Shown: positions 35,434 to 64,000, numbered from the stretch's first letter. The stretch is 64,000 bases of DNA from a virus (IMGVR_UViG_3300009709_000001:189336-253335); one strand, 5' to 3'. The notes: a model not told the origin generated them from the sequence alone. Numbers and translations are program-made.

Positions 35434-35437
35434 TCTT

Positions 35438-35797
35438 ATGAGCGAAAGACTCAACAAGGCATTGGCATTTGCCAACTATCGCCAAACCCTAAACAATCAA
35501 CTTCTCAAACTAAAAATTCGTGCTGAAGGCACACTTATCTATGCTAAGAATGGTGGCAGCTTTACCATTGGCCAAGAACTTATTTGTTTCCTTGATTATC
35601 TAGTTAGAATCGATATGAAGGAAGCAACATTACTTGATGACAATAGCAATCCAATTGCAATTGATGATGTTCCTGCATTCCTGAAAGAAATTACAGGGCG
35701 TTACTTCGAAGTAACAAATGATTATCTGCGTGAATATCAAGAAATTAGAAAATCGCGCAACGTAAGAAGTATTCTCGACATTAAGGACGAAGAATGA
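35438..35797 (+). CDS. Hypothetical protein, first gene of the glycan cluster
   Basis: Strong GGAGG SD; NGGSF, LLDDNSNPI; ATGA-coupled to the glycosyltransferase. Confidence 0.65.
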   Translation: MSERLNKALAFANYRQTLNNQLLKLKIRAEGTLIYAKNGGSFTIGQELICFLDYLVRIDMKEATLLDDNSNPIAIDDVPAFLKEITGRYFEVTNDYLREYQEIRKSRNVRSILDIKDEE

Positions 35798-48515: not shown

Positions 48516-48979
48516 TTAAACACCTAATTCTCGATGTTGACGGAGTATTGACAACAGGTCATTTCTTCTATAGCGAAAATGGAAAGATGTTCAAGGCCTT
48601 TGGTCCGCACGACAAGGATGGGTTAGAGTTAGCAAAGGAGATGGGCTTGTCTATCGATTTTGTTACAGCAGACGAAACCGGATTTAAGATTACCTCTGCA
48701 CGAATTGTCAGAGATTGGAAATTTAATCCATCGCAGTTGCATCTTGTAAGAGATGGTAAGAGATTAGATTGGATTGCTGCTCGATACGATATCGACGAAG
48801 TTGCTTACATGGGCGATGGCATCCACGATGCAGTAATTCTAGATGCTGTTGGCTTAGGTATTGCACCAAACACAGCTCGCATCGAAGCTAGACTTGCAGC
48901 AGATTATGTCACATTGAGTAACGCAGGCAACGGTGCTGTTCTTGATGCTGTTCTTTACATAAAGGATAATAATGTTTAG
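48512..48979 (+). CDS. KdsC-like HAD sugar-phosphate phosphatase
   Basis: LDVDGVLT, K.F...D, AYMGDGIHD, GNGAV. Confidence 0.85.
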   Translation: MIKHLILDVDGVLTTGHFFYSENGKMFKAFGPHDKDGLELAKEMGLSIDFVTADETGFKITSARIVRDWKFNPSQLHLVRDGKRLDWIAARYDIDEVAYMGDGIHDAVILDAVGLGIAPNTARIEARLAADYVTLSNAGNGAVLDAVLYIKDNNV

Positions 48980-49952
48980 ACTAGGTGTAGGTCCAATGAG
49001 TGATGATATTAATCGTATCATCAACGAATATGCAAAAGAGAATAACATCATGGTTGTTGCTTCACGCAACCAGGTTGATTATAAAGATGGCTACGTCTGT
49101 AAGACAGCCGAATTGCCTTCCTATTTTACCAATGCCGGTACAATGCTTTGTCGTGACCATTGTGGCCCATACTTCAAAGACCTAGATAAGAATAAATCAA
49201 TAGGTGCTGCAATGGAAGAATGCTTCCGTACTATCGACGCAGATATTGATGCAGGCTTTGATTTAATTCACGTTGATGTTTCTAGGATTCCAGAGAAGCA
49301 ACTCGATTACGCAAGAACACTAATCGAATACATTCTAAAGAAATCACCTGGCATGAAACTCGAATTTGGCAGCGAGAATAATACCGGGCACGATCTTGTA
49401 CCTAGTGCATCACGTCTAGAAGAACAACTCGAGTTCATCAAAGAATACAAAGATAACATCATCTTCTTTGTGACACAAACCGGTAGCTTTACACAACATA
49501 CTCAAGTCGGTAACTTTGATGTTGTTGCCAATTCGAGCATTGTCGAGAAAGTTCATAATGCCGGATTTAGATTTAAAGAACACAATGCCGATTATCTAAG
49601 TAGACCAGAAGTTGAATTAAGAAAACTTGCAAAAGTCGATGCAATGAACATTGCACCACAGCTCGGCGCAGTACAAACATCAATCTCAAGAAAGCTTAGT
49701 GCAACTACCTCCGGTGTTACAAAAGAATGGCATGACTTTGCACAGATGGTATATAGTAATAACCTTTGGCAGAAATGGATGCCATTGGGAATGAATGATC
49801 CCGAAATGGCAGTACAGGTATCTGGGCACTATTTCTTTGACACCGCTCAATATCAAGCTGTACTGTCCGCTATCGACGGATACACATTTCGTTATATGCT
49901 TCGAGCAGAATTGTTCAGCATCTTCAATTGTTATCATCAAGGATTACTATGA
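48972..49952 (+). CDS. GatZ/KbaZ-like TIM-barrel (sugar-phosphate epimerase/aldolase-related) protein
   Basis: ASRNQVD..GY, RDHCGP, GFDLIHVD, KEHNADY, NIAPQLG. Confidence 0.65.
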   Translation: MFRLGVGPMSDDINRIINEYAKENNIMVVASRNQVDYKDGYVCKTAELPSYFTNAGTMLCRDHCGPYFKDLDKNKSIGAAMEECFRTIDADIDAGFDLIHVDVSRIPEKQLDYARTLIEYILKKSPGMKLEFGSENNTGHDLVPSASRLEEQLEFIKEYKDNIIFFVTQTGSFTQHTQVGNFDVVANSSIVEKVHNAGFRFKEHNADYLSRPEVELRKLAKVDAMNIAPQLGAVQTSISRKLSATTSGVTKEWHDFAQMVYSNNLWQKWMPLGMNDPEMAVQVSGHYFFDTAQYQAVLSAIDGYTFRYMLRAELFSIFNCYHQGLL

Positions 49953-50053
49953 TTGAATGGTTTAAAAGTATCGTAAATCGCATCAAGAGCGAAATCAAAT
50001 ATCGCAAGAAGATGCGTGACATTAAGAAACGCGATCCACATATCTACAAATGA
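49949..50053 (+). CDS. Small basic protein (34 aa) upstream of the carbamoyltransferase
   Basis: Manually translated MIEWFKSIVNRIKSEIKYRKKMRDIKKRDPHIYK; ATGA overlaps on both sides. Confidence 0.6.
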   Translation: MIEWFKSIVNRIKSEIKYRKKMRDIKKRDPHIYK

Positions 50054-51522
50054 AAATTACCTGGGGAATATCTGCTCTCAACCATGATGCATCTATTACG
50101 GTGGTCAGGGATAACGAGATCTTATTTGCAGCGCATGCCGAAAGGTATTCGCGTGTTAAGAATGACCAACACCTCAACTTCACAATGATTGCTGATGCAT
50201 TGGAGTATGGTCTACCAAATCAAATCGTGTGGTTCGAAAAACCATTTGTTAAGAAACTTCGACAAGCTTATGCAGGTCAATGGAGAGAAGTATTAAGCAC
50301 TACTCCGGCGACCTATCTTGCAGGATACGAATTTCAGGATACCCCGACTTATTATATTCCACATCATAAGTCACATGCGGCTGCAGGATTCTATACATCG
50401 CCGTTCAATGATGCGACAGTCATTGTGGTTGATGCAATCGGCGAATGGGATACCATCTCTGTATGGAATGCCGGAGGCAATGAGCTCGAAAAAGTTTATT
50501 CGGTAAAGTATCCTAGCTCATTAGGACTGCTCTACTCAGCATTTACTCATCGTATTGATCTTAAGCCGAACGAGGAAGAATATATCTTGATGGGTATGGC
50601 CGCATATGGTGAACCTATCTATGTCGGTGATATTAAAAGGGATTTCATCGAAGATACTTCTGCACCCAATTTTACCTTAAAGGAAAATGTTCACAGAGGT
50701 ATTCGTTGGTGGAAGCCGGAGCTAACCACTGAACAAGATTATAAGAATATCGCCGCAAGCATTCAGGTCATTACAGAAGAATACATGCTCAAACTTGTCG
50801 AATGGGCAAGTCAGAACACTCCGTCAAAGAATCTCATTCTCATGGGCGGGGTTGCACTGAATTGTGTCGCAAATGAAAAGATTGCAAGAGCGGGATATTT
50901 TGATGACATCTGGATTATGCCTAATCCGGGCGATGCAGGAAGCTCTCTCGGTGCTGCTGCTGCATTCCTAAAGACAAAATTGAACTGGCAAGGCCCATAT
51001 CTCGGAACTGATATTGATCGTCCGTTTGATACGAACACAGTTGTCGATGCTATCCTAGAACATAAGATTATCGGTATTGCAACAGGACGAGCAGAATTCG
51101 GACCACGGGCATTAGGCAATCGTTCCTTGATTGCAGACCCACGTGGAGACGAAATCAAATCCAAAGTAAACGATATTAAGAAGAGGCAACAGTTTAGACC
51201 GTTTGCACCGATCGTTCTTGAACACCTTGCACATGAATATTTCGATATGCCAGTTAAGACAAGTCCGTATATGCAATTCACGGCTAAGTGTTTGCGTCCA
51301 GACTTATTTCCTGCGATTTGTCACGTAGACGGCAGCTCCCGCGTACAGACTCTCAACGAGCAACAAAATCCTGCAATTTACAAGGTTTTGCTAGAATTTT
51401 ACCAGAGAACTGGGTGCCCTATGTTGCTGAACACGAGCCTAAACATAAAAGGTGAACCACTTGTCGATACTTGGATCGATGCAATGAAGTTCCAACAAAA
51501 GCATAACGTACCGATGTTCTAA
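50050..51522 (+). CDS. O-carbamoyltransferase (NodU/CmcH/TobZ family)
   Basis: HDAS, ERYSRVKND, HHKSHAA, DAIGE, MGMAAYG, GGVALNC, GDAG, EFGPRALGNRS, FRPFAP, HVDGSSR, LNTSLN. Confidence 0.93.
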   Translation: MKITWGISALNHDASITVVRDNEILFAAHAERYSRVKNDQHLNFTMIADALEYGLPNQIVWFEKPFVKKLRQAYAGQWREVLSTTPATYLAGYEFQDTPTYYIPHHKSHAAAGFYTSPFNDATVIVVDAIGEWDTISVWNAGGNELEKVYSVKYPSSLGLLYSAFTHRIDLKPNEEEYILMGMAAYGEPIYVGDIKRDFIEDTSAPNFTLKENVHRGIRWWKPELTTEQDYKNIAASIQVITEEYMLKLVEWASQNTPSKNLILMGGVALNCVANEKIARAGYFDDIWIMPNPGDAGSSLGAAAAFLKTKLNWQGPYLGTDIDRPFDTNTVVDAILEHKIIGIATGRAEFGPRALGNRSLIADPRGDEIKSKVNDIKKRQQFRPFAPIVLEHLAHEYFDMPVKTSPYMQFTAKCLRPDLFPAICHVDGSSRVQTLNEQQNPAIYKVLLEFYQRTGCPMLLNTSLNIKGEPLVDTWIDAMKFQQKHNVPMF

Positions 51523-52259
51523 TGAAAGCTGTCCTCTTTATTTTTGGACGATTGCATTTTCTTGAGTCTTCGTTCAGACATTATCCGTTAACTGATGTAC
51601 TCGACGGTATAGACATAGATGTTTTTGTCCACGGCGACAAAACCTACAAAGAGGTTGTCGTTGATACGTCCACAGTTTATTCGGGTGTTAACGATCCTAT
51701 CGCGGTACGCGAACTTATTAGAAGTTCGTTGGATAGATCTATTACAATTGAGCAGGAGAACAACAAGTTCTTCAAGCGTACCAAGATGCTGATGTATAGA
51801 TGGAAATGGTTAACAAATATCCTAACCGAACAAGGTTATCCGGATACTACAACCATCATGACCATACGTGGTGATGTTGCGCATGATTTCACCGATATCC
51901 CATCGGTACAAAGTCTGCTAATCAACGGAACAGATAAATGGCACTGTTCTTGGAAAAATGAATCAGCAGCCGATGATTTGATGTTTGTCACCAATCTCGG
52001 GCTGCTGAAAAAATATATCGACTATTGCAAAGTACGAGTTACAGAATTAGAATTCGACTCCCATAACAACCTTGCAGAGTTTCTGAACATTAACGAATGT
52101 TGGGAGAAACTTCCTTGCGATACTTCGGTAATTAGAAATACCACAACAGATTTCAGTTCAATAAAGGCCATTGCTGAAGCGAGTGACAATTACAACGAAA
52201 GTCGACGTGTATGTCACTATTCGACTCCCGGTGTTAAGCCGCGACCACCGCAAACTTGA
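51522..52259 (+). CDS. Hypothetical protein, distant KIAxCxSG-family-like
   Basis: MKAVLFIFGRL, DVFVH, IRGD, DDLMF. Confidence 0.5.
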   Translation: MKAVLFIFGRLHFLESSFRHYPLTDVLDGIDIDVFVHGDKTYKEVVVDTSTVYSGVNDPIAVRELIRSSLDRSITIEQENNKFFKRTKMLMYRWKWLTNILTEQGYPDTTTIMTIRGDVAHDFTDIPSVQSLLINGTDKWHCSWKNESAADDLMFVTNLGLLKKYIDYCKVRVTELEFDSHNNLAEFLNINECWEKLPCDTSVIRNTTTDFSSIKAIAEASDNYNESRRVCHYSTPGVKPRPPQT

Positions 52260-53293: not shown

Positions 53294-53555
53294 TACCTAA
53301 CATTGCTCCGTAATTTCTGATTGCTCTGGCCGCATTAAAGCAGGCACTCGCACCGGCAGCATCACTATGTGTGCGCCCTTGCCGTTCAGCAACCAATGCA
53401 CATTCTTCGATAATTTTATTGAAAAATGGTACCAGACAAAAATCAGCTTCGTGCAATGCCATATCATCAAAGCCGGCTTCACGCGCCAACGCTTCAAGGG
53501 CGTTCCATTTGTTTGTTCGTTTGACTTGTTCTGGATCTGCTCTAATCACTGGCAT
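53283..53555 (-). CDS. Hypothetical protein
   Basis: Coupled ORF; LAREAGF, IIEECA. Confidence 0.55.
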   Translation of the reverse strand: MPVIRADPEQVKRTNKWNALEALAREAGFDDMALHEADFCLVPFFNKIIEECALVAERQGRTHSDAAGASACFNAARAIRNYGAMLGNDT

Positions 53556-54073
53556 TATTTCTTACCCTTGAGCTGATTGAACATCTTCAACATAGCTTCC
53601 GCGTTACCCTTCGCATCATCAACTGGATGATGTGTATGCTTTGTATCACGCAGGTGACGAAATGATGAATAAAGATCTTGCTGTTGGCCTTTGTAGAAGG
53701 AACCAATATTGGATGATGACCAACCGAAAGGATTCCTTCCCAGGAACTTCCAGAAGTAATAATTGATGAAAGCAAAGTCGTAGCCGTTGTTATCAGACCA
53801 GAAGATTGGGCGCCGGCCGTCCATATTCTTATTCAGCCATGTTTCGAAATTAAACATGGTATCGTATGGATCGGGAAACTTCATTGTTTCTTCCCGGGTG
53901 AAACCGCCGACTGCGAGTGCTTCTGGTACCCAAATATCTGAGATGGGCTTGAGCTGCCCATAAAAGGTGCGTTGCAAACCATTTTCGACAATAACTGCGC
54001 CGAAACAAGTCATGCTATGCATACCGGGGCAAGGGCCGTCCGATTCGACGTCCACTGAAACATTCTGTGACAT
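53555..54073 (-). CDS. DEDD 3'-5' exonuclease-family protein
   Basis: SVDVESDG, NNGYD, THHPVDDA. Confidence 0.8.
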   Translation of the reverse strand: MSQNVSVDVESDGPCPGMHSMTCFGAVIVENGLQRTFYGQLKPISDIWVPEALAVGGFTREETMKFPDPYDTMFNFETWLNKNMDGRRPIFWSDNNGYDFAFINYYFWKFLGRNPFGWSSSNIGSFYKGQQQDLYSSFRHLRDTKHTHHPVDDAKGNAEAMLKMFNQLKGKK

Positions 54074-54488: not shown

Positions 54489-54767
54489 TCAATCCTCGTC
54501 CCTTGTCGCAATGACCTTCTTCAATTCACCTTTAAGAACATCGAGCACTAACGATGTACGGAATGCAAACGGAAAGATTAATCCAGTTGCAATGAACATC
54601 AACATACCGGGAATGAGCATCGACAACAATAACAGTCCGATACCTAAACTGGCTGCAATGAATCCGACTACCCTTGTCACTAACAGATAACCGTAGAGTT
54701 CGTCCAATGGCTTCTTTTCAAGATCCTTGATTAGATCGGCAAGGATGTACTTTTGTTCTTCATTCAC
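54489..54767 (-). CDS. Membrane protein (two predicted TM helices)
   Basis: Long hydrophobic stretch VVGFIAASLGIGLLLLSMLIPGMLMFIATGLIFPFAF. Confidence 0.55.
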   Translation of the reverse strand: MNEEQKYILADLIKDLEKKPLDELYGYLLVTRVVGFIAASLGIGLLLLSMLIPGMLMFIATGLIFPFAFRTSLVLDVLKGELKKVIATRDED

Positions 54768-55461
54768 GGAGTTGTCCTTTCAGGGCATAGAAGTCAAGTA
54801 ATTCAAAAAATAGATCTGGATTACGAAGGAAGTGGGATCCGATAGTTTCTTCGATGTAACGTCGGGTAATATAACTTATACCGGTTGTATCTCTTATTGC
54901 GGCCATGTAATAATGAAATGCATCTTCGAGCTCTGCAGGATTATCTCTTACGGTTCTAAACATATCATATCTGTATTTCTTATCTCGAGAAATCGCATGC
55001 TGCAGATAAGTTTTATGTTGAGAGATGAATTTAACAACATCGGTTTGGAAATTGATTAATTCATTATTGAAAAGTATTAATCCATATACCGATAATTGCT
55101 CAATGTCATATTTCTCAAATGAATTGTATGGCATGAATCCAATCCAATCTCCACGCGAATCCGAAACGATGCGAGGCATTGATGAATTGAAGTTATCGCA
55201 TAATTCATATAAGCATTCTTCCATCGTGTCCATGAGAAGACCTTCGGATTCAAAACTGAACCCAAAGCCTACTCGTAGAGATGCATTATTTTCGATGATT
55301 TTATGAATTGCACTTGGATCACCTTTCTCAGATCCAGACCGAAGAGTAAGACGTTGTCTTCCCAATTGATCTTCAATGGGTTTCGACAAATCTATGGTCG
55401 TGTGCGAATGAAAGCCTATGATCGACGTCGTAGGCGTAATCTCGAAACGGGGTGTGCCCAT
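54760..55461 (-). CDS. Hypothetical protein
   Basis: Start moved to ATG 55461 (TAATG coupling with the Imm-like gene). Confidence 0.55.
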   Translation of the reverse strand: MGTPRFEITPTTSIIGFHSHTTIDLSKPIEDQLGRQRLTLRSGSEKGDPSAIHKIIENNASLRVGFGFSFESEGLLMDTMEECLYELCDNFNSSMPRIVSDSRGDWIGFMPYNSFEKYDIEQLSVYGLILFNNELINFQTDVVKFISQHKTYLQHAISRDKKYRYDMFRTVRDNPAELEDAFHYYMAAIRDTTGISYITRRYIEETIGSHFLRNPDLFFELLDFYALKGQLRE

Positions 55462-55643
55462 TACTGAGATCTGCTCAACAGGCTCCAAGCCAAGAGTGGT
55501 AACCAGAAGATTACAGACCACCCAAGGAATAGATTAATCCAGAAGCACAGCGTGGTATTCTTATGTCCACGTTGGTTTGCGATAATAGTCGGTAAGAACA
55601 TTATCGCGGTGACAATCAAGAAAAACAGGATATCAACGATCAT
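55461..55643 (-). CDS. imm: Superinfection immunity protein (T4 Imm-like)
   Basis: FLPTIIA..RGH.N....WINLFLGWS...W...LAWS matches the Imm pattern. Confidence 0.8.
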   Translation of the reverse strand: MIVDILFFLIVTAIMFLPTIIANQRGHKNTTLCFWINLFLGWSVIFWLPLLAWSLLSRSQ

Positions 55644-56851: not shown

Positions 56852-57154
56852 CTACTTCCAAACAGTGAATGGAAAACGAAGTAAGAATGCTAACCGATCA
56901 GATTCCTTCTTCAAATAGATGCTGTCATAGACCACCGGTACGAAATCTTCGTAATCATCTTGCACAGTTGGAATAACAAGATGGTCATAATTTCCACCGA
57001 GTTGCCAATGTGGATAACCTTCCTCCGGATGAATAGTTTCTCTGCACCACTTTCGAATTTCGAGTTGTTGATCAATGCAGGCCTTCCACTCTACCATGGT
57101 TGCTGCATGTTGCGGTAGTTCACAGAACTTTATTTGAAAGATATTATTTTTCAT
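56852..57154 (-). CDS. Array paralogue
   Basis: KWCRET...YLKKESDRLAFLLRF. Confidence 0.7.
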   Translation of the reverse strand: MKNNIFQIKFCELPQHAATMVEWKACIDQQLEIRKWCRETIHPEEGYPHWQLGGNYDHLVIPTVQDDYEDFVPVVYDSIYLKKESDRLAFLLRFPFTVWK

Positions 57155-57404
57155 GTACTACTAATCCGGTCTTACCGAAATGAATTGTGAATCTTGTAGC
57201 GTCTTCGTCCTTGAGGAAATAGAGGCACCGAATTACGCCAGTGACTCCGTATCTGGTAATACCAATATCCCAGTCTTCATCCTTGATATTCTCATCCATC
57301 CAGTTTACAACTTCGGCCTCGGCCTCGAAAAGTTTTTCCCTAGAAGAACCTACTCTGCCTGATTGATTATCATAATAATCATCTAGGTAAATTCGATATG
57401 TCAT
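57144..57404 (-). CDS. Array paralogue
   Basis: NWMDENI...YFLKDEDATRFTIHF; start at the ATGA overlap. Confidence 0.7.
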   Translation of the reverse strand: MTYRIYLDDYYDNQSGRVGSSREKLFEAEAEVVNWMDENIKDEDWDIGITRYGVTGVIRCLYFLKDEDATRFTIHFGKTGLVVHEK

Positions 57405-57670
57405 GTGAGTACATCTATAAAGGCCAGTTTGAATGCGGTTGCATCTTCGGCGCGGTCGAAATACATTAGTGTTCGGAAGCATGGCCCGCCGCGCTGTTCA
57501 AACTTATCGGTAGTGGGACCTAGATTCATCCAGTCCTTCCATGCTTCGCCGACATTCTTCTCTAACCAAATTCTCATCTTTCGATAATGGTCATTCACAT
57601 CATGGTAGGTATCACACTTTTCGAATAGCGGCAAGAAGCTAACCGACGGGCTTGTATCTAGGTCAATCAT
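57401..57670 (-). CDS. Array paralogue
   Basis: IWLEKNVG...YFDRAEDATAFKLAF. Confidence 0.75.
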   Translation of the reverse strand: MIDLDTSPSVSFLPLFEKCDTYHDVNDHYRKMRIWLEKNVGEAWKDWMNLGPTTDKFEQRGGPCFRTLMYFDRAEDATAFKLAFIDVLT

Positions 57671-57885
57671 TTTGGCGTCACCGCATTAGAGAGCTTGAAC
57701 ATTATCGCATCTTCCTCGTGCTCAAAGACTACACCTTTAATAACAAGTGTTCCGTCACCGGGTCTTCTATCAAATATCCAACGCCATTGCCATGTACCGT
57801 CTGTACCTACAGGAAGATGATTTACTAACCACCTTCTGCATCTATGAACTTCGGATGGATCGAGTGCAACTCTTGTTTTAAACAT
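57667..57885 (-). CDS. Array paralogue
   Basis: RWLVNH...VFEHEEDAIMFKL. Confidence 0.7.
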   Translation of the reverse strand: MFKTRVALDPSEVHRCRRWLVNHLPVGTDGTWQWRWIFDRRPGDGTLVIKGVVFEHEEDAIMFKLSNAVTPK

Positions 57886-58090
57886 CGGCACACCTAAATT
57901 TCAAACGAAAGGCCAGAACAGTCTGTGGATCCTTGATCACATACATTCGACTGTATACTACTCCCTCCGAGATGAAGTAATTATTGACAAACCCTTCGTG
58001 CCCTGCATTCTCGACTAGCCATGCGTGTGCTGCGGAAGCATCATTCTCATCTTCCAAAAAGACCAAAAACCAATTCGTAAAATCTTTCAT
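57878..58090 (-). CDS. Array paralogue
   Basis: AWLVENAG...IKDPQTVLAFRLKF. Confidence 0.7.
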   Translation of the reverse strand: MKDFTNWFLVFLEDENDASAAHAWLVENAGHEGFVNNYFISEGVVYSRMYVIKDPQTVLAFRLKFRCADV

Positions 58091-58311
58091 TCAACCTCAA
58101 TAAATCCATGTGCCAGTATTAACATCACGGCCGCTTCTCTTTCGACCACAACGTGGGATGCAATCCACCGACCAGTGTCACTCCATATGAATGTATGTTG
58201 CGGAGAGATCTCACGAACATATCTTCGTAGGTAATTAAATTTCAGGATAGTAGCACCAGTGGTTATCTCAAACTCTTTCGGTAGTGCAAGCTTTACCATT
58301 AGAGAATTCAT
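58087..58311 (-). CDS. Array paralogue (divergent)
   Basis: VVEREAAVMLILAHG. Confidence 0.55.
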   Translation of the reverse strand: MNSLMVKLALPKEFEITTGATILKFNYLRRYVREISPQHTFIWSDTGRWIASHVVVEREAAVMLILAHGFIEVE

Positions 58312-58580
58312 GTCTTGAAGATCTCCGGAAAAGACAGGACCGCCATTGTTACCAACTCCGGTAGATTCTCATTGATGAAGACATAATCGGCATATATCAT
58401 ACCTTTTGAATCTTGGCAACCAATTCCCGAAAGTCGAACATCACATGGATGCTGGCGCCTAACCCAATCATGAAGTTTGATATAGACTTCCCTGTGCCGA
58501 TAAGGATTATCAAGATGATATCTTCTCAGTCGGTATAACATTCCACCGTAGTGAACATTTATGTAGTCACTCGAAATCAT
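58308..58580 (-). CDS. Array paralogue (divergent)
   Basis: DWVRRQ...PELVTMAVLSF. Confidence 0.55.
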   Translation of the reverse strand: MISSDYINVHYGGMLYRLRRYHLDNPYRHREVYIKLHDWVRRQHPCDVRLSGIGCQDSKGMIYADYVFINENLPELVTMAVLSFPEIFKT

Positions 58581-58780
58581 ACAATACCTAAACCATTCTG
58601 TAATTTGAATGCGGTTATATCTTCCGGCTGTTTGAATATGATTATTGTATAGGCCGGCAAGATCCTGGCCTCTAATCTAATAAGCTGATCATAAAGATCA
58701 TTAGTCAGAGTAAACCACTCCCAACTATTGTACTTGTCAGGACCTATGGTACGCAAGCGCCAAAGCTTATGCTCCGTCAT
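58577..58780 (-). CDS. Array paralogue
   Basis: IFKQPEDITAFKLQNG. Confidence 0.7.
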   Translation of the reverse strand: MTEHKLWRLRTIGPDKYNSWEWFTLTNDLYDQLIRLEARILPAYTIIIFKQPEDITAFKLQNGLGIV

Positions 58781-58985
58781 GCGGAAATGTTAATCGAAAA
58801 GCAATCGCATCGTGCTCATTCGCGAAAACAATAGCACATCTATCGTAATTCTTGGAATGATCAAAATCCATCTGATGTGTAGCCCAAAACCAAGTCTGTT
58901 GGCTCGGTTCACCAATCTTCTCTTTCAACCAATCCAGATATTCCATCTGGGTGTTGAAGTTATCTAAAATAGGAAGGTAGATCAT
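58767..58985 (-). CDS. Array paralogue
   Basis: DWLKEKIG...VFANEHDAIAFRLTF. Confidence 0.7.
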   Translation of the reverse strand: MIYLPILDNFNTQMEYLDWLKEKIGEPSQQTWFWATHQMDFDHSKNYDRCAIVFANEHDAIAFRLTFPHDGA

Positions 58986-59172
58986 TTCCAAACTTCAATT
59001 TAAAAGCAATTGCATCTTCGTCGAGCAGAATATACAAGACGAAGTCTTCGATCCTGAATAATCCTTCGCCAATATTATCGAGCAACCATGTCGTAACCTG
59101 ATTCCTCTTGTCAAGGAAATCAGAATAGCTATGTGGACCCTTAGAGTTCCATCTAAATGGAATAGTTGTCAT
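58960..59172 (-). CDS. Array paralogue
   Basis: TWLLDNIG...DEDAIAFKLKFG. Confidence 0.75.
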   Translation of the reverse strand: MTTIPFRWNSKGPHSYSDFLDKRNQVTTWLLDNIGEGLFRIEDFVLYILLDEDAIAFKLKFGNDLPSYFR

Positions 59173-59444
59173 TAAAATCTTAACCTAAATGCAATCGCAT
59201 CTTCTTCACGGCAGAAGCCGAAAGAAGTTACTCCATACATAGCCCATGGCTGTGAAATTAATCCATCTTCATCGGGCCACGGCTCCAAATTAAACAACCA
59301 TTCGAGTAACTCGATATAACCTATGTTATGTGGAGATGGAACAATGAAATTAATCTGCAATGGTGCCCGATATGTAATCTCTGTACCGCCCGGCGCATAG
59401 ACACGAACAGTGTTATCCTTATCGTCGGTGATAATCTTATTCAT
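59172..59444 (-). CDS. Array paralogue
   Basis: EWLFN...GFCREEDAIAFRLRF. Confidence 0.75.
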   Translation of the reverse strand: MNKIITDDKDNTVRVYAPGGTEITYRAPLQINFIVPSPHNIGYIELLEWLFNLEPWPDEDGLISQPWAMYGVTSFGFCREEDAIAFRLRF

Positions 59445-59658
59445 ATGTAGTCATCCAGAAGATTAACTTGAATGCTAACGCATCCTCGGGATTCTCGAAC
59501 CAATAGGTACTCGGTCCAGACTTCATCAACCCATAATGTGCATACCAGGTTCCATTCTTTAGATTAGTTCTGCACCAACCCCAATGGGTTTCATGATCCT
59601 TAGGAACCTTGTGTTCATAAACCTTGACGCAAACATCAGTCATGTTTCTTGGCTGCAT
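59437..59658 (-). CDS. Array paralogue
   Basis: GWCRTNL...WFENPEDALAFKLIF. Confidence 0.75.
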   Translation of the reverse strand: MQPRNMTDVCVKVYEHKVPKDHETHWGWCRTNLKNGTWYAHYGLMKSGPSTYWFENPEDALAFKLIFWMTTYE

Positions 59659-59854
59659 AGAATACCCGCGGATATTTTAATCTGATAGTTAATGCATCTT
59701 CTTCATGCTTGAAGGCAATACATCCGGGCCTGGGAAACCAGAAAGTTTGAGTATCATTTCGATCTGCACTAATCTGATTTAGCCATAGGATTGCTTGTGT
59801 CATCTCATGCACATCACTCCAACCACTCTCATTAATTTCAAAGACCAAGCTCAA
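59636..59854 (-). CDS. Array paralogue
   Basis: LWLNQ...AFKHEEDALTIRLKY. Confidence 0.7.
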   Translation of the reverse strand: MSLVFEINESGWSDVHEMTQAILWLNQISADRNDTQTFWFPRPGCIAFKHEEDALTIRLKYPRVFYAAKKHD

Positions 59855-60083
59855 TTTTATTCTCTGATAGGAAACGAAGTTTAAAGGCGAGTGCTAGTTC
59901 GGGATCAGCAAAGACATATCCATAATAGATACGATCGCATTGACGATGATTCAATTGATAGATATCCGACCCATCAGGCCTGCAAGTAAACCATGTATCG
60001 GGTCCTTCGGCAACGCCACAGTTCTTAAGCCATTCTCTTGCGGCCTGGTTACTCTTCTGTACTGGTAGTCCAACGTAAATCAT
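59838..60083 (-). CDS. Array paralogue
   Basis: EWLKNCG...VFADPELALAFKLRF. Confidence 0.7.
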   Translation of the reverse strand: MIYVGLPVQKSNQAAREWLKNCGVAEGPDTWFTCRPDGSDIYQLNHRQCDRIYYGYVFADPELALAFKLRFLSENKIELGL

Positions 60084-60304
60084 AATCCAAACCTTAGTTT
60101 AAAGGCCACTGCATCCTCACCATTTGAGAAATGCCATTCCATTTCCTGCTCGATAAATTCAGCGTCGATTTCATTCTCATCAAGCCATTCTGCCTGCGGT
60201 GCTATCTCATCCGGTACATAGGGATTCAGGCCGCCGGCACGAAGCATCAGAAGAAATCTTTTCAGCGATGGAAAATCTTTCGGTAATGCCTTTACTGCAA
60301 TCAT
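60080..60304 (-). CDS. Array paralogue
   Basis: EWLDENEI...HFSNGEDAVAFKLRFGL. Confidence 0.75.
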   Translation of the reverse strand: MIAVKALPKDFPSLKRFLLMLRAGGLNPYVPDEIAPQAEWLDENEIDAEFIEQEMEWHFSNGEDAVAFKLRFGL

Positions 60305-60401
60305 AATCCTAAAACTCGTCGGGCGGGTGTTTTCTTCGCGGTGCGCGCCGAAACGCCAAAATTTTAATATCTGTTCTCTTAGCCAATAATGATATTATCG
60401 A

Positions 60402-60689
60402 CTATACCGCCGGAATCCATTTTTGTCCCGACATCATCAATTTAAAATAGGTTGCATCCTCGGCATTCTTAAACACAAATCCATAGGAGAATTGCGTAAT
60501 ACCCGTCCAGTGCCATTCACCTTGCTTAAATGTTTTCTGGCACCAGACAATCATCTTATCCATTATCTTACGATAGGTCATAACATCTTCATCAAACTGG
60601 TCAAAATATTCAAACATCGGCCAGATCTCTGTCCAGGCAACACCATCAATAATTGTTTCACGCACGATCACCACCAACGTCCTGTGCAT
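60402..60689 (-). CDS. Array paralogue
   Basis: VWCQKTF...VFKNAEDATYFKLMM. Confidence 0.7.
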   Translation of the reverse strand: MHRTLVVIVRETIIDGVAWTEIWPMFEYFDQFDEDVMTYRKIMDKMIVWCQKTFKQGEWHWTGITQFSYGFVFKNAEDATYFKLMMSGQKWIPAV

Positions 60690-60951
60690 CTGTCACTAAA
60701 AGACCAAGGGTCCTTCCGCCGAAACGCAACTTAAATATCACCGCGTCCTCTCTAGAAAGCGTAATCATATTCGGATAATAGACATTATTCTCTAGTCGAA
60801 CTATAGAACGTTCCAAATACGGAATATCAGATCTACTCAACCAGAGCGCTATCTCTAACCATTTCACTACATTCAGATACGGTTCGTCGGGATTAAATCC
60901 TAAAACTACGAAAACTATATTCTTGTCCCTAATCGATTCTGTGTATATCAT
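60658..60951 (-). CDS. Array paralogue
   Basis: LWLSRSDI...SREDAVIFKLRFG. Confidence 0.7.
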   Translation of the reverse strand: MIYTESIRDKNIVFVVLGFNPDEPYLNVVKWLEIALWLSRSDIPYLERSIVRLENNVYYPNMITLSREDAVIFKLRFGGRTLGLLVTDAQDVGGDRA

Positions 60952-61168
60952 GTCCGTTAAATCTCAATAAGAAAGCAATTGCATCATTCTCATGCGGAAA
61001 CCAAAAGTCGACATGCAAGTGTGTTGCATCACGCTTTACAATTTCTCGTCTAGACCCGGGATTGTTTGCAATCTATTGTTTCATTTCGTCCCATTCGGGC
61101 CAACCCTTAATTGCTTCGGGATTAGCAATTTCGGCACTAAGGACGGTATATAAAATCTTTTCTCTCAT
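60929..61168 (-). pseudogene. Array paralogue interrupted by an in-frame TAG
   Basis: MREKILY...DEMKQ*IANNPG...WFPHENDAIAFLLRF; TAG at 61073-61075 where paralogues have Trp. Confidence 0.7.
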
Positions 61169-61356
61169 AATCCGAAAGTAATTTTAAATGCGAGTGCATC
61201 AGCAGGATCTCTAAACTCGATATAGAAAAAGGTATGTCCCCAATCCCAAGAATCAGGAGAACGTTCATTCAGTGCATCAAGCCATTTGGCGGCCTGCTCC
61301 TCTTTATCTTCCTGATCGGAAGATGTCGACATGGGCCAATGTACGGTTGTTTTCAT
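61165..61356 (-). CDS. Array paralogue
   Basis: KWLDAL...EFRDPADALAFKITFGL. Confidence 0.75.
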   Translation of the reverse strand: MKTTVHWPMSTSSDQEDKEEQAAKWLDALNERSPDSWDWGHTFFYIEFRDPADALAFKITFGL

Positions 61357-61631
61357 GATAACCGCCAAGTCAGAGTTAATGCAATAGCATCGGCTTCATT
61401 TCGAAAACCGAGCATTGGATATTGTCCGGAAAAATAAATCCATTGCGGCTCGACACCAGGTTCGATATCAGAATCTCCTACGGCGTAACCTACGTTAGCA
61501 AGTAGCCATTCGATAACTTTTACATCGTCACTTGCGGTAAGGCTGTCACTAAACGGCCAGGCCACCGTATACCTGTACGTTTCGAAATCTTCTTCCGTAA
61601 ACATAGGATACAGATCTTTATTCTTAATCAT
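61353..61631 (-). CDS. Array paralogue
   Basis: EWLLANVG...GFRNEADAIALTLTW. Confidence 0.75.
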   Translation of the reverse strand: MIKNKDLYPMFTEEDFETYRYTVAWPFSDSLTASDDVKVIEWLLANVGYAVGDSDIEPGVEPQWIYFSGQYPMLGFRNEADAIALTLTWRLS

Positions 61632-61875
61632 ACACCAAATCTTATCTTAAACGCGGTCGCATCTAATGTATCGCCGAAAAGGTAATGCAACGAATAAATC
61701 GAATTACCTCGGCATACCACTCACCGGTTATCTGTCTCTTACACCATGCATTCATCTCGTCATACAAATCAGAAGCATAACGTGGACTGTTCAGAAAATA
61801 TTCCGTAGGAACAGTAACCCGCTGATAAAGGCATTCCGGTCTTATTCTTTGCGGTAGTTCTGGTGTAGGATCCAT
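61628..61875 (-). pseudogene. Frameshifted array paralogue
   Basis: Frame 1 gives ...AWCKRQITGEW...CITF then stops at 61663; the motif FGDTLDATAFKIRFGV* lies in another frame and ends in the ATGA overlap at 61628. Confidence 0.65.
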
Positions 61876-61885
61876 CAGTATTTCA

Positions 61886-62113
61886 TTATATCGGAAACAT
61901 AAGTTTAAAGAGAGTAGCATCGTCTTCGTGTAGCTCAATCTTCAAAGGGATCGATGGACCAAAGTATCCAATTTCCCTAACATCTCTAGCCATGTAAAAG
62001 ATATCATTTTCGTGTAACCAGGCTTCCATTTTTGCCCAACGCTCGATATCTTTCGGAGTCATGTTGTCTTCGTCAAATCCAAGACTTATTCTTTTCGACC
62101 TTTCTAGTTTCAT
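61886..62113 (-). CDS. Array paralogue
   Basis: AWLHENDI...HEDDATLFKLMF. Confidence 0.75.
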   Translation of the reverse strand: MKLERSKRISLGFDEDNMTPKDIERWAKMEAWLHENDIFYMARDVREIGYFGPSIPLKIELHEDDATLFKLMFPI

Positions 62114-62146
62114 GCAAGTTAAACCTCATCTTATTATTTTTCATTT

Positions 62147-62401
62147 TCAATCCCCATTTATAGCGCCGAGGAGTGCGGGAAAGTCAAATTCAGCCAAACC
62201 AAACTTCAACTTCACCATAAGTGCATCGGATTTGTTACCGATTGTAAGTCCAATAGGAAGTCGAATATGGCTGTAGCGAACAACGTAATCGATCTTGTTT
62301 GCATCACAGTAATCGGTAATGCCGTAAACAAAGTTACCGAGATCACTTAACGTTTCTATAGTAGATGGAATTGCCGGGGCGCGCAAATCGAAAGTAGTCA
62401 T
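62147..62401 (-). CDS. Array paralogue
   Basis: DYCDANKI...NKSDALMVKLKFGL. Confidence 0.7.
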   Translation of the reverse strand: MTTFDLRAPAIPSTIETLSDLGNFVYGITDYCDANKIDYVVRYSHIRLPIGLTIGNKSDALMVKLKFGLAEFDFPALLGAINGD

Positions 62402-62664
62402 CCACACACCATTACTGCTTCATAGATAGGTTCATATTCTTCGCGAACAGACAACCCGAACTTAATCGCGACAAGGGTAGCAGCCTGCTCATCTTCAATA
62501 TCGATTGCAATAGGTCCAATCGCATCATGTCGCGAAATACATCTGATACCGGTTCCACGACAATACTCGAGAATCTCATCACAGAGTTCCCACATCTCGA
62601 ATCTATCACGCCTGTGGCCTTCATGTCTCTTACTCGGGCCGGAAAGATCAAATGCAGTAGTCAT
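62398..62664 (-). CDS. Array paralogue
   Basis: EYCRGTGI...DEQAATLVAIKFGL. Confidence 0.7.
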   Translation of the reverse strand: MTTAFDLSGPSKRHEGHRRDRFEMWELCDEILEYCRGTGIRCISRHDAIGPIAIDIEDEQAATLVAIKFGLSVREEYEPIYEAVMVCG

Positions 62665-62855
62665 CTTATTGTGTGTCCAAACTTTAATCGAAATGCTAAC
62701 TCATCTTCAGCATCACTGAAACCAATATGTCGACCACTAATGCCATAAGGTTGGGTACAGTTTTTCTTAGCCCATTGCACGATATCTTCTATGTACCGCC
62801 ATCTATCAATGCCATCTTTAATGTGTTCGGGAATTATTATTCCCATTATCTTCAC
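62661..62855 (-). CDS. Array paralogue
   Basis: QWAKKNC...GFSDAEDELAFRLKFG. Confidence 0.75.
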   Translation of the reverse strand: MKIMGIIIPEHIKDGIDRWRYIEDIVQWAKKNCTQPYGISGRHIGFSDAEDELAFRLKFGHTIR

Positions 62856-63061
62856 CTACCGAATCTCAGAATAAACGCGCTCATATCTTCTTCACGTTCA
62901 AAGTATATTTCTACTCCATCGGCTGTATGCAGAAATGTAATCTCCTGATCTATCAAGAAGTTATAAGCATCGTCATCGATCTTAAACAAGTCGGGCCGTT
63001 TCCTACCAACCATAAATGGTGCTCGCCAATCCCAACGTAGAACAAACTTTTTCGAATTCAT
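62852..63061 (-). CDS. Array paralogue
   Basis: YFEREEDMSAFILRFG. Confidence 0.75.
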   Translation of the reverse strand: MNSKKFVLRWDWRAPFMVGRKRPDLFKIDDDAYNFLIDQEITFLHTADGVEIYFEREEDMSAFILRFGR

Positions 63062-63288
63062 TACAAACCAAACTTCAACTTAAAGAAAGTCCAATCCTCT
63101 ACAGTAATGAATAACGAATACTGTTTGTACCAACTTCCATTTCCATACGTATCGATCCAAGCACGCATATCATCCCAATCCTCAGATTTAACATTTAAGG
63201 ATTCATCAGTAAAGAACGAGCTAAACAGATCGATACGTATAAAAGCGATATCATCTTTCACAATACTGATTTTATCTACAAACGGCAA
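63061..63288 (-). CDS. Array paralogue
   Basis: AWIDTYG...TVEDWTFFKLKFGL. Confidence 0.7.
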   Translation of the reverse strand: MPFVDKISIVKDDIAFIRIDLFSSFFTDESLNVKSEDWDDMRAWIDTYGNGSWYKQYSLFITVEDWTFFKLKFGL

Positions 63289-63291
63289 GAC

Positions 63292-63633
63292 TCATGATTC
63301 CAATTCTGAAAAGTTAAAGTGAGAAAACTTTATACGAAAAAGTGTCTCATCTTCCGAATTCGAGAATCCAATAATGTGCGGAATCCACATAGACACATTC
63401 TGACCAGTAAACATATCTTTCGACACGTTAACTGAACACTCCCCGGAGAAACGGTATTGAGCTTCCGGAAATTGAATCTCTTCAAGCCAGTCAACTACTT
63501 CTTTATAGCGCTCTTGAGCATGCCAAAATGCATGTTTCGGTGATATGTAACGTATGAACTTGAAGTCTTCATCGTCCTTAGACGGAGACATGGTTAACAA
63601 CACATTGTAATCCATACATTTCTGATACGACAT
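63292..63633 (-). CDS. Array paralogue
   Basis: DWLEEI...GFSNSEDETLFRIKF. Confidence 0.7.
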   Translation of the reverse strand: MSYQKCMDYNVLLTMSPSKDDEDFKFIRYISPKHAFWHAQERYKEVVDWLEEIQFPEAQYRFSGECSVNVSKDMFTGQNVSMWIPHIIGFSNSEDETLFRIKFSHFNFSELES

Positions 63634-63699
63634 TGTACGTGCTTTCTACCTAGACTTTTTACTCGTATTAGTGTAACACAGAGTTATAGAAAGGTTCAA

Positions 63700-63960
63700 T
63701 TATATCGTTTGGAAGACAAGCCTAAAGGCAACCGCATCTTCCTCTGTAGGAACATATACTGCAATCACCATAGAATCAATATTTCTGTCATAAGCGACAG
63801 ATACTAGCCAATCGTTAGGAGAATTTTCTTGTAACCAGGAATCTATTCTTTTCGAATTAGTATAGTAGTAAGTTTCATTAATGTGGATAGCAACTTTCCT
63901 AAGTTTTGATTCATAGTCGGACATAAACTTGGCTTCGATAATAGCTTCAGCTTTAGACAT
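63700..63960 (-). CDS. Array paralogue
   Basis: SWLQENS...PTEEDAVAFRLVF; GGAG SD region. Confidence 0.75.
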   Translation of the reverse strand: MSKAEAIIEAKFMSDYESKLRKVAIHINETYYYTNSKRIDSWLQENSPNDWLVSVAYDRNIDSMVIAVYVPTEEDAVAFRLVFQTI

Positions 63961-64000
63961 CGGAGGTTCCTATAGGATTTGGGTAAAAAATCAGTTGCAA

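What the first reader, a model, noticed from the sequence alone, without database searches (positions are those of the whole stretch)
56852..63960. ~7-kb tandem array of ~29 divergent small paralogues sharing a C-terminal (E/D)DAxxF(K/R)LxF motif
Seen: 27 intact and 2 broken consecutive minus-strand ORFs of about 63-113 aa, mostly coupled by ATGA/TAATG overlaps. Most have a central helix with W(L/C)xxN, then a beta-like stretch and F-x3-(E/D)-D-A-x-x-F-(K/R)-L-x-F (e.g. YFDRAEDATAFKLAF, GFCREEDAIAFRLRF, HFSNGEDAVAFKLRFGL). The rest of each sequence is very divergent, and I saw no long DNA repeats. The array may continue past the window edge. Inference: a constant docking motif plus variable surfaces suggests a modular repertoire, such as adaptors or effectors binding one shared partner while recognising different host targets (anti-defence or host takeover), expanded by gene-accordion duplication. 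I cannot assign a known family.
Basis: partly seen in the sequence, partly recalled or inferred. Interest (0 to 1): 0.85.

Follow-up and report, generated by a model that had tools for sequence, protein, structure and literature searches.

The report
Small-protein gene array in jumbo phage
A 385-kb uncultured giant phage carries one operon of 29 back-to-back genes for very different versions of one small, undescribed, virus-only protein; the shared "motif" is probably the folding core of a common scaffold, and the copies are most likely a panel of binders for different host proteins, which nobody has tested.

Summary
Window 56852-63960 (minus strand) has 27 intact and 2 broken small ORFs, mostly overlapping by 1-4 nt. 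A profile built only from 117 foreign sequences recognises 25 of the 28 listed ORFs, both broken copies and 19 dispersed copies elsewhere in the genome. The array does not run past the window edge. It starts behind a terminator and a sigma-70-like promoter just outside the window.

The genome is a 385,394-bp jumbo myovirus, distantly PA5oct/CBB-like. The family is large (949 clusters at 50% identity), appears virus-only and matches nothing in Pfam, PHROGs, PADLOC or PDB sequences. It nearly always occurs in tandem arrays (6-30 copies in ten other phage loci).

AlphaFold models (pLDDT 80 and 88) give a beta-alpha-beta-beta-alpha sandwich. The motif spans strand 3 and helix 2, so it is mainly scaffold core, not a detachable docking peptide.

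The duplications are old. Fourteen positional orthologues are collinear with a 290-kb relative at 27-55% identity, and paralogues are barely alignable. A 95%-identical strain lacks the first gene.

Function is untested. The best guess is a repertoire of small acidic protein binders. This scan found the same family before on other DNA (e1-5389879, e1-5389887).

The parts
56852..63960 (-). Whole array: 27 intact and 2 broken units of one small-protein family, numbered W01 (63700-63960) to W28 (56852-57154) in the direction of transcription.
63961..64000 (-). Proximal part of the 5' leader of the array. The sigma-70-like promoter (TTGCAA-17-TATACT, about window 64126-64098) and the terminator of the upstream unit lie just outside the window.
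63700..63960 (-). W01, 86 aa, family member (external HMM E 3e-9). Absent from a 95%-identical strain (L020).
63292..63633 (-). W02, 113 aa, member (E 1e-5).
63061..63288 (-). W03, 75 aa, member (E 4e-5).
62852..63061 (-). W04, 69 aa, member (E 1e-5).
62661..62855 (-). W05, 64 aa, member (E 3e-8).
62398..62664 (-). W06, 88 aa, diverged member. Not hit by the external HMM, but 28% identical over 71 aa to W07.
62147..62407 (-). W07, 86 aa, member (E 4e-4).
61886..62113 (-). W08, 75 aa, member (E 2e-4).
61628..61938 (-). W09, broken by a frameshift. The N-terminal part is in the frame of ORF 61663-61938. The C-terminal SIYSLHYLFGDTLDATAFKIRFGV is in another frame (61720-61628).
61353..61631 (-). 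W10, 92 aa, member (E 2e-5).
61165..61368 (-). W11, 67 aa (63 from the ATG), minimal member (E 4e-11). Modelled at pLDDT 88.
60929..61168 (-). Broken copy with one in-frame TAG (61075-61073). The ATG overlaps the stop of W11 (ATGA), and the C-terminal FWFPHENDAIAFLLRF is kept. It matches the external HMM at E 3e-5 when read through with X.
60658..60951 (-). W12, 97 aa, member (E 4e-4).
60402..60689 (-). W13, 95 aa, member (E 6e-16).
60080..60304 (-). W14, 74 aa, member (E 2e-7). Modelled at pLDDT 80.
59838..60083 (-). W15, 81 aa, member (E 2e-7).
59636..59854 (-). W16, 72 aa, member (E 1e-5).
59437..59658 (-). W17, 73 aa, member (E 3e-16).
59172..59444 (-). W18, 90 aa, member (E 7e-6).
58960..59172 (-). 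W19, 70 aa, member (E 5e-11).
58767..58991 (-). W20, 74 aa, member (E 7e-13).
58577..58780 (-). W21, 67 aa, member (E 5e-8).
58308..58580 (-). W22, 90 aa, no motif and kinship not demonstrable. It has a positional orthologue in L015 (34% over 89 aa).
58087..58311 (-). W23, 74 aa, no motif and kinship not demonstrable. It has a positional orthologue in L015 (29% over 73 aa).
57878..58090 (-). W24, 70 aa, member (E 5e-8).
57667..57891 (-). W25, 74 aa, member (E 3e-9).
57401..57670 (-). W26, 89 aa, member (E 3e-12).
57144..57482 (-). W27, member (E 7e-13). The likely true start is the internal ATG that gives 86 aa, as called in the public collection (P0001).
56852..57154 (-). W28, 100 aa, last member (E 4e-11). 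Best-conserved orthologue in L015 (55% over 99 aa).

Best explanation
The region is one operon of a conserved, ancient multigene family in an uncultured 385-kb jumbo myovirus.

Shown:
- Each gene encodes a 60-110-residue, mostly acidic protein. No signal peptide or membrane segment stood out by eye, but none was formally predicted.
- All copies share a two-layer beta-alpha-beta-beta-alpha domain.
- The family occurs only in viruses, as far as the searches reach, and almost always as tandem arrays.
- The copies are old and individually retained.

Inferred:
- The conserved residues build the scaffold: W in helix 1, W in strand 2, F in strand 3, the E-D-A N-cap, and A..F.L.F of helix 2.
- The N-terminal extension, the loops after helix 1 and between strands 2 and 3, and the open faces and edges of the three-stranded sheet differ between paralogues and carry specificity.
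- The array therefore makes a panel of about 27 different small binders in the infected cell. Each probably grips a different host (or rival-element) protein, for example by adding to an exposed beta edge, to switch it off or redirect it (takeover or counter-defence).

My odds are about 0.9 that it is such a family array, about 0.45 that the copies are binders with different targets, and lower for any specific target class.
For: - **Family and array.** An external-only HMM hits 25 of 28 ORFs, both broken copies and 19 dispersed copies out of 3245 ORFs.
- **Size of the family.** 949 representatives of 50%-identity clusters at E<=1e-3.
- **No annotated relative.** No match in Pfam, PHROGs, PADLOC or PDB sequences.
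- **Virus-only.** No confirmed copy in one genome each of 185,579 prokaryote species, by motif scan. The nearest ESM Atlas clusters are 94-100% viruses.
- **Arrays are the rule.** Counts are 26 copies in L015, 13 in L017 and 6-29 in each of L022-L030. The Sinorhizobium phage Phosso has 30, a 369-kb IMG/VR phage (G001) has 29, and PA5oct and Atu_ph07 have 4 each.
- **Fold.** Two AlphaFold models (pLDDT 80.4 and 87.7) have the same core, with the motif spanning beta3, the turn and alpha2.
- **Old, individually kept copies.** Of 15 reciprocal best hits with L015, 14 are collinear (W12-W28 with R23-R39) at 27-55% identity. Best paralogue hits reach only 18-33 bits. Twenty-seven of 29 units are intact.
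- **Purifying selection and turnover.** Against a 95%-identical strain (L020), W02 and W03 differ at 9 synonymous and 8 non-synonymous codons, roughly dN/dS 0.3 on small numbers, and W01 is absent.
- **Protein properties.** Median pI is 5.1, with 20 of 28 copies below 6.5.
- **Not virion parts.** The four PA5oct homologues (EST35_0247, 0274, 0275, 0282) carry no ESI-MS/MS virion note, while their neighbours do.
- **Structural neighbours.** The nearest folds are small modules that bind through sheet edges: the designed beta-sheet heterodimer LHD29 (Z 6.5, rmsd 2.3, 58 aligned), Pcc1 and type III secretion chaperones. Such Z values are generic.
Against: - There are no binding, expression or phenotype data for any member.
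- Timing of expression is unknown. The promoter call is a 9-of-12 consensus match, and the PA5oct paper gives no per-gene data for the homologues.
- Helix 2 is conserved on more than one face (E52, D53, A54, A56, F57, K/R58, L59, R/K60, F61). That is more than packing on the sheet needs and could mark a shared ligand or partner.
- Fold matches are weak (Z<=6.5) and include RNA-binding KH/RRM and ligand-binding ACT domains.
- Burial of the conserved residues was argued from sequence and secondary structure, not computed from coordinates.
Confidence: 0.5

Rival explanations
1. Shared-partner adaptor repertoire. The conserved helix-2 surface docks every paralogue onto one common phage or host machine, and the variable parts bring different clients to it.
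For: Nearly every position of helix 2 is conserved, including a basic pair K/R58 (91%) and R/K60 (76%) and the acidic E52/D53, in otherwise acidic proteins. The C-terminus ends right after the helix (G-L-COOH) in most members.
Against: The strongest invariants are hydrophobic (W25, F48, A54, F57, L59, F61) and lie in elements that pack together in the models. The charged residues can be explained as N-cap and intramolecular salt bridges with the conserved acidic positions of helix 1. No co-occurring partner was found: the conserved 233-aa neighbour is missing from PA5oct, Phosso and Atu_ph07, which do carry the family.
Confidence: 0.15
2. Small nucleic-acid-binding regulators (KH/RRM/ACT-like alpha/beta sandwiches) that bind different RNAs or DNA sites, for example translational repressors or RNA chaperones.
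For: Fold neighbours include KH, RRM and ACT domains at Z 4.7-5.4. There is a conserved basic pair in helix 2. An RNase T/Rv2179c-like exonuclease lies on the same strand 1.1-5 kb downstream of the last array copy in 8 of 8 loci examined.
Against: Most copies are acidic (median pI 5.1; only 2 of 28 above pI 8). The alignment shows no GXXG loop or RNP motifs. The topology lacks the fourth strand of RRM/ACT and the second helix of type I KH. The exonuclease link is explained by conserved synteny within one phage clade.
Confidence: 0.1
3. The paralogues assemble with each other into hetero-oligomers (a multi-subunit structure or a combinatorial set of dimers) and do not act singly.
For: A three-stranded sheet with free edges often pairs with a second copy, as in ACT, Pcc1 and the designed LHD heterodimers. 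Eleven of the 150 best database representatives hold 2-3 tandem domains in one chain, a Rosetta-stone-type hint. The genes are translationally coupled.
Against: Some phages carry only 4 scattered copies (PA5oct, Atu_ph07). Copy number varies freely, and one unit can be lost between near-identical strains. The fused forms may be gene-calling read-through.
Confidence: 0.12
4. Immunity-type or exclusion proteins. A 'polyimmunity' panel in which each copy neutralises a different toxin or effector of hosts or competing phages, or blocks superinfection.
For: Tandem arrays of highly diverged small single-domain proteins are the hallmark of bacterial polyimmunity loci (general knowledge; Zhang et al. 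2012, as cited in earlier scan notes, not re-read here). There is unit-wise gain and loss.
Against: No match to SUKH/Imm or any Pfam family. No toxin genes were noticed nearby. The family was not found in bacteria.
Confidence: 0.08

Closest known systems
The 'FKLxW' small-protein arrays noted earlier by this scan in other soil jumbo phages (e1-5389879, about 48 copies; e1-5389887, about 33-57 copies)
   Same: The C-terminal signature is the same (D-x-x-A-x-x-F-K-L-x-W/F; W replaces F at the last position in 15 of 92 aligned members here). The organisation as tandem arrays in jumbo phages is the same, and so is the reading of a constant core with variable loops.
   Different: They are in different genomes. 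I could not align their sequences with this array: a look-up by sequence found nothing. Identity of the family therefore rests on the motif alone.
Homologues in isolated phages: Sinorhizobium phage Phosso (30 copies), Pseudomonas phage PA5oct (EST35_0247, 0274, 0275, 0282), Agrobacterium phage Atu_ph07 (4)
   Same: They match the same profile at E down to 3e-9. All are annotated 'hypothetical protein'.
   Different: In PA5oct and Atu_ph07 there are only a few scattered copies. None has been studied.
Tandem gene arrays and lineage-specific expansions of jumbo phages: more than 30 similar genes in phages G and 121Q (Hua et al. 2017, PMC5646251); about 35 zinc-ribbon copies in phage G (Iyer et al. 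2021, PMC7824862)
   Same: These are also large tandem expansions of one small protein in a giant phage genome, with unknown function.
   Different: It is a different protein family and fold. Here the copies are very diverged (paralogues barely alignable), not 'very similar', and the family spans many phage lineages.
Ferredoxin-like, ACT or KH-type two-layer alpha/beta sandwiches; designed beta-sheet heterodimer LHD29 (PDB 6wmk)
   Same: Two helices are packed on one face of a small antiparallel sheet. Best VIA-align matches are Z 6.5 (6wmk), 6.3 (6nuk), 5.4 (ACT domain 5v0s) and 5.3 (MzrA 4pwu).
   Different: The sheet has only three strands (beta-alpha-beta-beta-alpha, with no fourth strand). 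There is no sequence relationship (best PDB profile hit E 0.28), and Foldseek found nothing at E<=1e-3. Z values of this size are common for unrelated small folds.
Multigene families of large eukaryotic DNA viruses (ASFV MGF, poxvirus host-range families); analogy from general knowledge
   Same: These are also clustered, diverged paralogues with copy-number differences between strains, thought to act on host functions.
   Different: The proteins, hosts and virus realm are unrelated. No functional data exist here.

Membership tests
Unnamed virus-only 'W(C/L)xxN ... F-x3-EDAxAFKLxF/W' small-protein family (no Pfam or PHROG accession) | Significant match to a profile built from members of other genomes only | tested here: met
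   25 of 28 array ORFs at E 3e-16 to 2e-3, and both broken copies at E 5e-6 and 3e-5. W06 is joined by transitivity. W22 and W23 are not matched.
Unnamed virus-only 'W(C/L)xxN ... F-x3-EDAxAFKLxF/W' small-protein family (no Pfam or PHROG accession) | Single domain of about 57-110 aa ending a few residues after the conserved helix; invariant W in helix 1; F, D-A and F-[KR]-L-x-[FW] in the tail | tested here: met
   Alignments A1-A3 and column counts.
Unnamed virus-only 'W(C/L)xxN ... F-x3-EDAxAFKLxF/W' small-protein family (no Pfam or PHROG accession) | Common beta-alpha-beta-beta-alpha fold | tested here: met
   Two members modelled: pLDDT 80.4 (W14) and 87.7 (W11). They have the same core elements. 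Only two of 29 were modelled.
KH domain (type I) | beta-alpha-alpha-beta-beta-alpha topology with a GXXG loop between the two helices | tested here: not met
   There is one helix between strand 1 and strand 2 in the minimal member, and no conserved GXXG (only G33 at 41%). Structural Z is only 4.7-5.4.
ACT / ferredoxin-like (beta-alpha-beta-beta-alpha-beta) | Four-stranded antiparallel sheet with two helices, and a ligand-binding loop between beta1 and alpha1 | tested here: inconclusive
   The models end after alpha2 and have no fourth strand. Z is 5.0-5.4 to ACT domains. No Pfam ACT hit.
Known anti-phage-defence system proteins (PADLOC-DB) | Profile match | tested here: not met
   In 25 members there were only three isolated weak hits, the best at E 4e-4, each in one member.
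Known anti-defence proteins (Acr, Ocr/Arn-type DNA mimics, nucleotide sponges) | Sequence or fold match to a characterised inhibitor | tested here: inconclusive
   No dedicated anti-defence library was available. The PDB profile search gave only AcrIIA13 at E 1.1, which is noise. No clear fold match was found.
Bacterial polyimmunity proteins (SUKH, Imm families) | Pfam match to an immunity family; adjacency to polymorphic toxin genes | tested here: not met
   No Pfam hit at E<=0.1 in 20 members. None of the neighbouring ORFs tested matched a toxin family.

The most novel reading that the evidence does not exclude
The conserved helix-2 face (E52-D53 ... K/R58 ... R/K60, ending in a free G-L carboxy-terminus) is a common docking surface. 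Dozens of paralogues would plug into one shared phage or host machine, and their variable parts would deliver different host targets to it. That would be a virus-encoded, combinatorial adaptor system spread over about a thousand sequence clusters of large phages.
Probability: 0.15. Interest if true: 0.8.

Novelty: new member of a known kind. Interest (0 to 1): 0.45.

Why it matters
Giant phages spend a sizeable share of their genomes on arrays like this one. Here that is about 7 kb in the array plus about 19 scattered copies. The family has about 950 sequence clusters, is apparently restricted to viruses and has no annotation in Pfam or PHROGs.

It has cultivable entry points: four genes in PA5oct on Pseudomonas aeruginosa PAO1, and 30 in Phosso on Sinorhizobium meliloti. 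That makes it a tractable route to finding what such repertoires do.

If the copies are inhibitors of host proteins, they would be a rich source of new small protein binders and possibly of counter-defence factors. If they share one partner, they would define a new adaptor system.

As it stands this is a well-documented example of a known phenomenon. It does not overturn current understanding.

Tried and rejected
- **Family libraries.** Pfam, PHROGs and PADLOC scans of 10-25 window members and 10 foreign members gave no credible family.
- **Isolated phage records.** megablast of the array, and tblastn of two foreign members (P0048, P0032), found no match. Single short sequences are too weak; the profile search did find copies.
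- **Solved structures by sequence.** The profile against PDB sequences gave a best E of 0.28.
- **Fold searches.** Foldseek against PDB and BFVD found nothing at E<=1e-3. The top BFVD rows are uncharacterised phage proteins that are probably family members. VIA-align wide gave only generic alpha/beta sandwiches, Z<=6.5. The ESM Atlas gave only unnamed, mostly viral clusters.
- **Homodimer co-fold of the minimal member (complex prediction).** No verdict (score 0.09, mark 0.42). This is neither for nor against binding.
- **Close relatives for dN/dS.**
  - The 195-kb Logan contig (L021) is 100% identical over 9 kb, so it is the same phage.
  - A pattern search with W28 in IMG/VR found nothing.
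  - P0013's contig had no DNA available.
  - Only the 922-bp L020 was usable.
- **Expression timing from the PA5oct transcriptome paper.** The homologues lie outside the early region named in the text (gp34-105), and no per-gene table is held.
- **Candidate common partner.** The conserved 233-aa neighbour (alignment A4) is present only in the close clade. It is absent from PA5oct, Phosso and Atu_ph07, so it is rejected as an obligate partner.
- **Stop-codon recoding as an explanation for the in-frame TAG.** The large structural genes are open under code 11, and TAG ends 53 long ORFs, so there is no general recoding. A phage tRNA with anticodon CUA exists, so occasional read-through cannot be excluded.
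- **Internal promoters and terminators.** None was convincing. Promoter-like sites are fewer than in shuffled sequence (15 against 22).
- **Rfam on the upstream 17.5 kb.** No match.
- **Motif scan of 185,579 prokaryote genomes.** There were 35 pattern matches and none was confirmed.

Full report
**1. Where we are**

The window is bases 189336-253335 of a 385,394-bp IMG/VR virus record with direct terminal repeats. Its baseplate wedge protein is about 43% identical to that of Pseudomonas phage PA5oct and about 37% to that of Pectobacterium phage CBB. PHROG hits include a tape measure protein, the baseplate hub with lysozyme, and an SbcC-like nuclease. It is therefore an uncultured jumbo myovirus, distantly of the PA5oct/RaK2/CBB type, with 41% G+C.

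**2. The observation**

Between 56852 and 63960 the minus strand holds 28 consecutive ORFs of 64-113 aa. I number them W01 to W28 in the direction of transcription, so W01 is 63700-63960 and W28 is 56852-57154. Twenty of 27 junctions overlap, and eight overlap by exactly 1 or 4 nt.

To avoid circularity I built an HMM from 117 database representatives that are not encoded by this genome. I scanned all 3245 ORFs of 35 aa or more in the genome with it.
- It hits 25 of the 28 array ORFs (E 3e-16 to 2e-3), both broken copies, and 19 further ORFs scattered over the genome, all on the minus strand.
- W06 is tied in through W07.
- W22 and W23 have no motif and no demonstrable kinship.

The two broken units are real.
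- W09 is frameshifted. Its C-terminal ...LDATAFKIRFGV lies in another frame at 61720-61628.
- The 213-nt 'gap' between W11 and W12 holds a copy (60929-61168) with a single in-frame TAG at 61075-61073.

The only DNA-level repeats are the 30-35-nt motif-coding stretches at 63-79% identity.

The array does not run off the window. Upstream of W01 lie the following, in order:
- a leader;
- a sigma-70-like site (TTGCAA-17-TATACT, about window 64126-64098);
- a terminator-like hairpin that closes the upstream unit;
- an 8-kb region of 50-60% G+C with unrelated ORFs.

**3. What the family is**

The profile of the array finds 949 representatives of 50%-identity clusters at E<=1e-3 among 1.84 billion. 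Most are 57-100 aa and end in ...EEDAxAFKLRFGL or ...FKLRW. Eleven of the best 150 hold two or three tandem domains.

Neither window members nor foreign members match anything in Pfam, PHROGs, PADLOC or PDB sequences.

The family looks virus-only.
- A motif scan of one genome for each of 185,579 prokaryote species gave no confirmed copy.
- The nearest ESM Atlas clusters are unnamed and 94-100% Uroviricota.

Among isolated phages, all copies are annotated as hypothetical.
- The profile finds 30 copies in Sinorhizobium phage Phosso.
- It finds 4 in PA5oct and 4 in Agrobacterium phage Atu_ph07.
- It finds none in T4, KVP40, RaK2, SCTP-2 or RsoM2USA at E<=0.01. CBB gave one weak hit interrupted by stops.

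The PA5oct copies carry no virion mass-spectrometry note, unlike their neighbours.

**4. Arrays are the rule**

Every further locus I fetched has the family in tandem.
- L015, a 290-kb Logan contig, has 26 copies.
- L017, a 44-kb contig of an NCBI assembly, has 13.
- Nine IMG/VR loci (L022-L030) have 6-29 copies each.
- A complete 369-kb IMG/VR phage (G001) has 29 copies genome-wide, about half of them (14) in one array.

Most of these loci belong to one clade that shares gene order downstream of the array.
- A conserved protein of about 233 aa is 24-74% identical across six loci (alignment A4).
- An RNase T/Rv2179c-like exonuclease of about 171 aa lies on the same strand in 8 of 8 loci examined.

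**5. Age and turnover**

Against L015, 15 array units have reciprocal best hits. Fourteen of these are collinear (W12-W28 with R23-R39) at 27-55% identity. The ten promoter-proximal units (W01-W10) have no clear orthologue.

Within the window, the best paralogue pairs score only 18-33 bits. The duplications therefore long predate the split of these phages, and each position has been kept as its own gene. This is not an accordion caught in the act.

Turnover still happens. A 922-bp JGI contig (L020) is 95% identical to the window across W02-W03. It lacks W01 and part of the leader, and the junction sits at a short CTTC-type homology. Across W02 and W03 the two strains differ at 9 synonymous and 8 non-synonymous codons. 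That suggests purifying selection (roughly dN/dS 0.3) on very small numbers.

A 195-kb Logan contig (L021) is 100% identical over 9 kb and is the same phage.

**6. Fold**

AlphaFold2 with family alignments gives pLDDT 80.4 for W14 and 87.7 for the 63-aa W11. The minimal member has these elements:
- strand 3-6;
- helix 13-32, which carries the invariant W25 and N30;
- strands 37-40 (W37) and 45-48 (F48);
- helix 51-61 (E52, D53, A54, A56, F57, K58, L59, R60, F61).

The motif is thus the last strand, the N-cap and the last helix of a compact two-layer sandwich.

Foldseek found no significant PDB match. Its top BFVD rows are uncharacterised phage proteins with TM about 0.7. VIA-align against 48,161 chains gives only generic small alpha/beta sandwiches:
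- the designed beta-sheet heterodimer LHD29 (Z 6.5);
- a designed ferredoxin (Z 6.3);
- ACT, MzrA, KH, Pcc1 and type III secretion chaperones (Z about 5).

These values are within the range the tool describes as common for unrelated folds. I read them as 'ferredoxin-like sandwich lacking the fourth strand', not as homology.

**7. Mechanism**

Shown:
- small, mostly acidic proteins (median pI 5.1);
- a constant scaffold;
- strong divergence elsewhere;
- retention of individual copies;
- restriction to viruses;
- absence from the PA5oct virion list.

Inferred:
- The invariant W/F/A/F/L/F set forms the hydrophobic core and the helix-helix contact, and E-D caps helix 2.
- Specificity lies in the N-terminal extension, the loops and the open sheet.
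- The operon therefore supplies a panel of different binders for host (or rival) proteins.

I put about 0.45 on 'binders with different targets'. The main reservation is that helix 2 is conserved on more than one face, including a basic pair.

Other rivals are nucleic-acid binding (about 0.1; the acidity argues against it), assembly of the paralogues with each other (about 0.12; fused forms hint at it) and an immunity or exclusion role (about 0.08).

A homodimer co-fold gave no verdict.

**8. Comparison with what is known**

Tandem expansions in jumbo phages are documented.
- Phages G and 121Q each have more than 30 similar genes in tandem (PMC5646251).
- Phage G has about 35 zinc-ribbon copies (PMC7824862).

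I found no paper describing this family. This scan has already reported what is, by motif, the same family in two other soil jumbo phages (e1-5389879 and e1-5389887). This is therefore a new, well-characterised member of a known kind of feature, in an undescribed but widespread protein family.

**9. Verdict**

- Novelty: a new member of a known kind.
- Interest: 0.45.

Noticed in passing
L019:9545-15347 (G000:C1:262544-268346, about 9 kb beyond the window's right end): A second, unrelated tandem array of about 22 minus-strand ORFs of 71-156 aa. Their C-termini share an 'EY(E/D)Q(R/S)R'-type ending (e.g. LEYEQRRQ, EYDQSRN, YERTL).
   Followed up: no
L019:500-9000 and G000:C1:270000-275000: Islands of 50-60% G+C in a 41% G+C phage, directly upstream of the array's promoter. 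ORFs there overlap on both strands. Four tested ORFs have no Pfam hit, and Rfam finds nothing.
   Followed up: partly
G000:C1:144387-144463 (minus strand, 45 kb before the window): ARAGORN finds one tRNA with anticodon CUA (amber-suppressor type, labelled tRNA-Pyl) among 54 phage tRNA genes. TAG still ends 53 long ORFs and the structural genes are open under code 11, so there is no general recoding. The array copy with a single in-frame TAG (61075-61073) could in principle be read through.
   Followed up: partly
window 53555-54073 (-) and 54760-55521 (-): Downstream of the array, on the same strand, lie an RNase T/Rv2179c-like DEDD exonuclease (172 aa) and a conserved protein of about 233 aa with no family. 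The exonuclease recurs downstream of the array in 8 of 8 related loci examined, and the 233-aa protein recurs in six. The array therefore occupies a fixed position in this phage clade.
   Followed up: partly
window 63961-64148 (partly outside the window; L019:346-373): The leader of the array holds two copies of CCAAATCCTATAG(A/G). It also holds a 10-bp hairpin followed by a T run (CCTATAGAGGTCACCTTTCTTCTATAGG). In the 95%-identical strain L020 there is only one copy of the repeat, no hairpin and no W01, so the duplication came or went together with the first gene.
   Followed up: partly
window 32552-52259 (+): A long plus-strand block of about 20 genes includes a NodU/Nol-type carbamoyltransferase (50050-51522; 50% identical to a Ralstonia phage RsoM2USA protein) and a radical-SAM protein (39734-41131). 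It may be a sugar or surface-modification cluster.
   Followed up: no
window 22535-32380 (+): A single 3281-aa ORF follows the baseplate wedge gene, at the same position as the giant structural proteins of PA5oct, CBB and Phosso.
   Followed up: no
G000:C1, dispersed (e.g. 21784-22035, 24227-24460, 103337-103785, 143174-144175, 336845-337692, 367245-367523): About 19 further copies of the same family lie singly or in groups of 2-4 elsewhere in the genome, all on the minus strand.
   Followed up: partly
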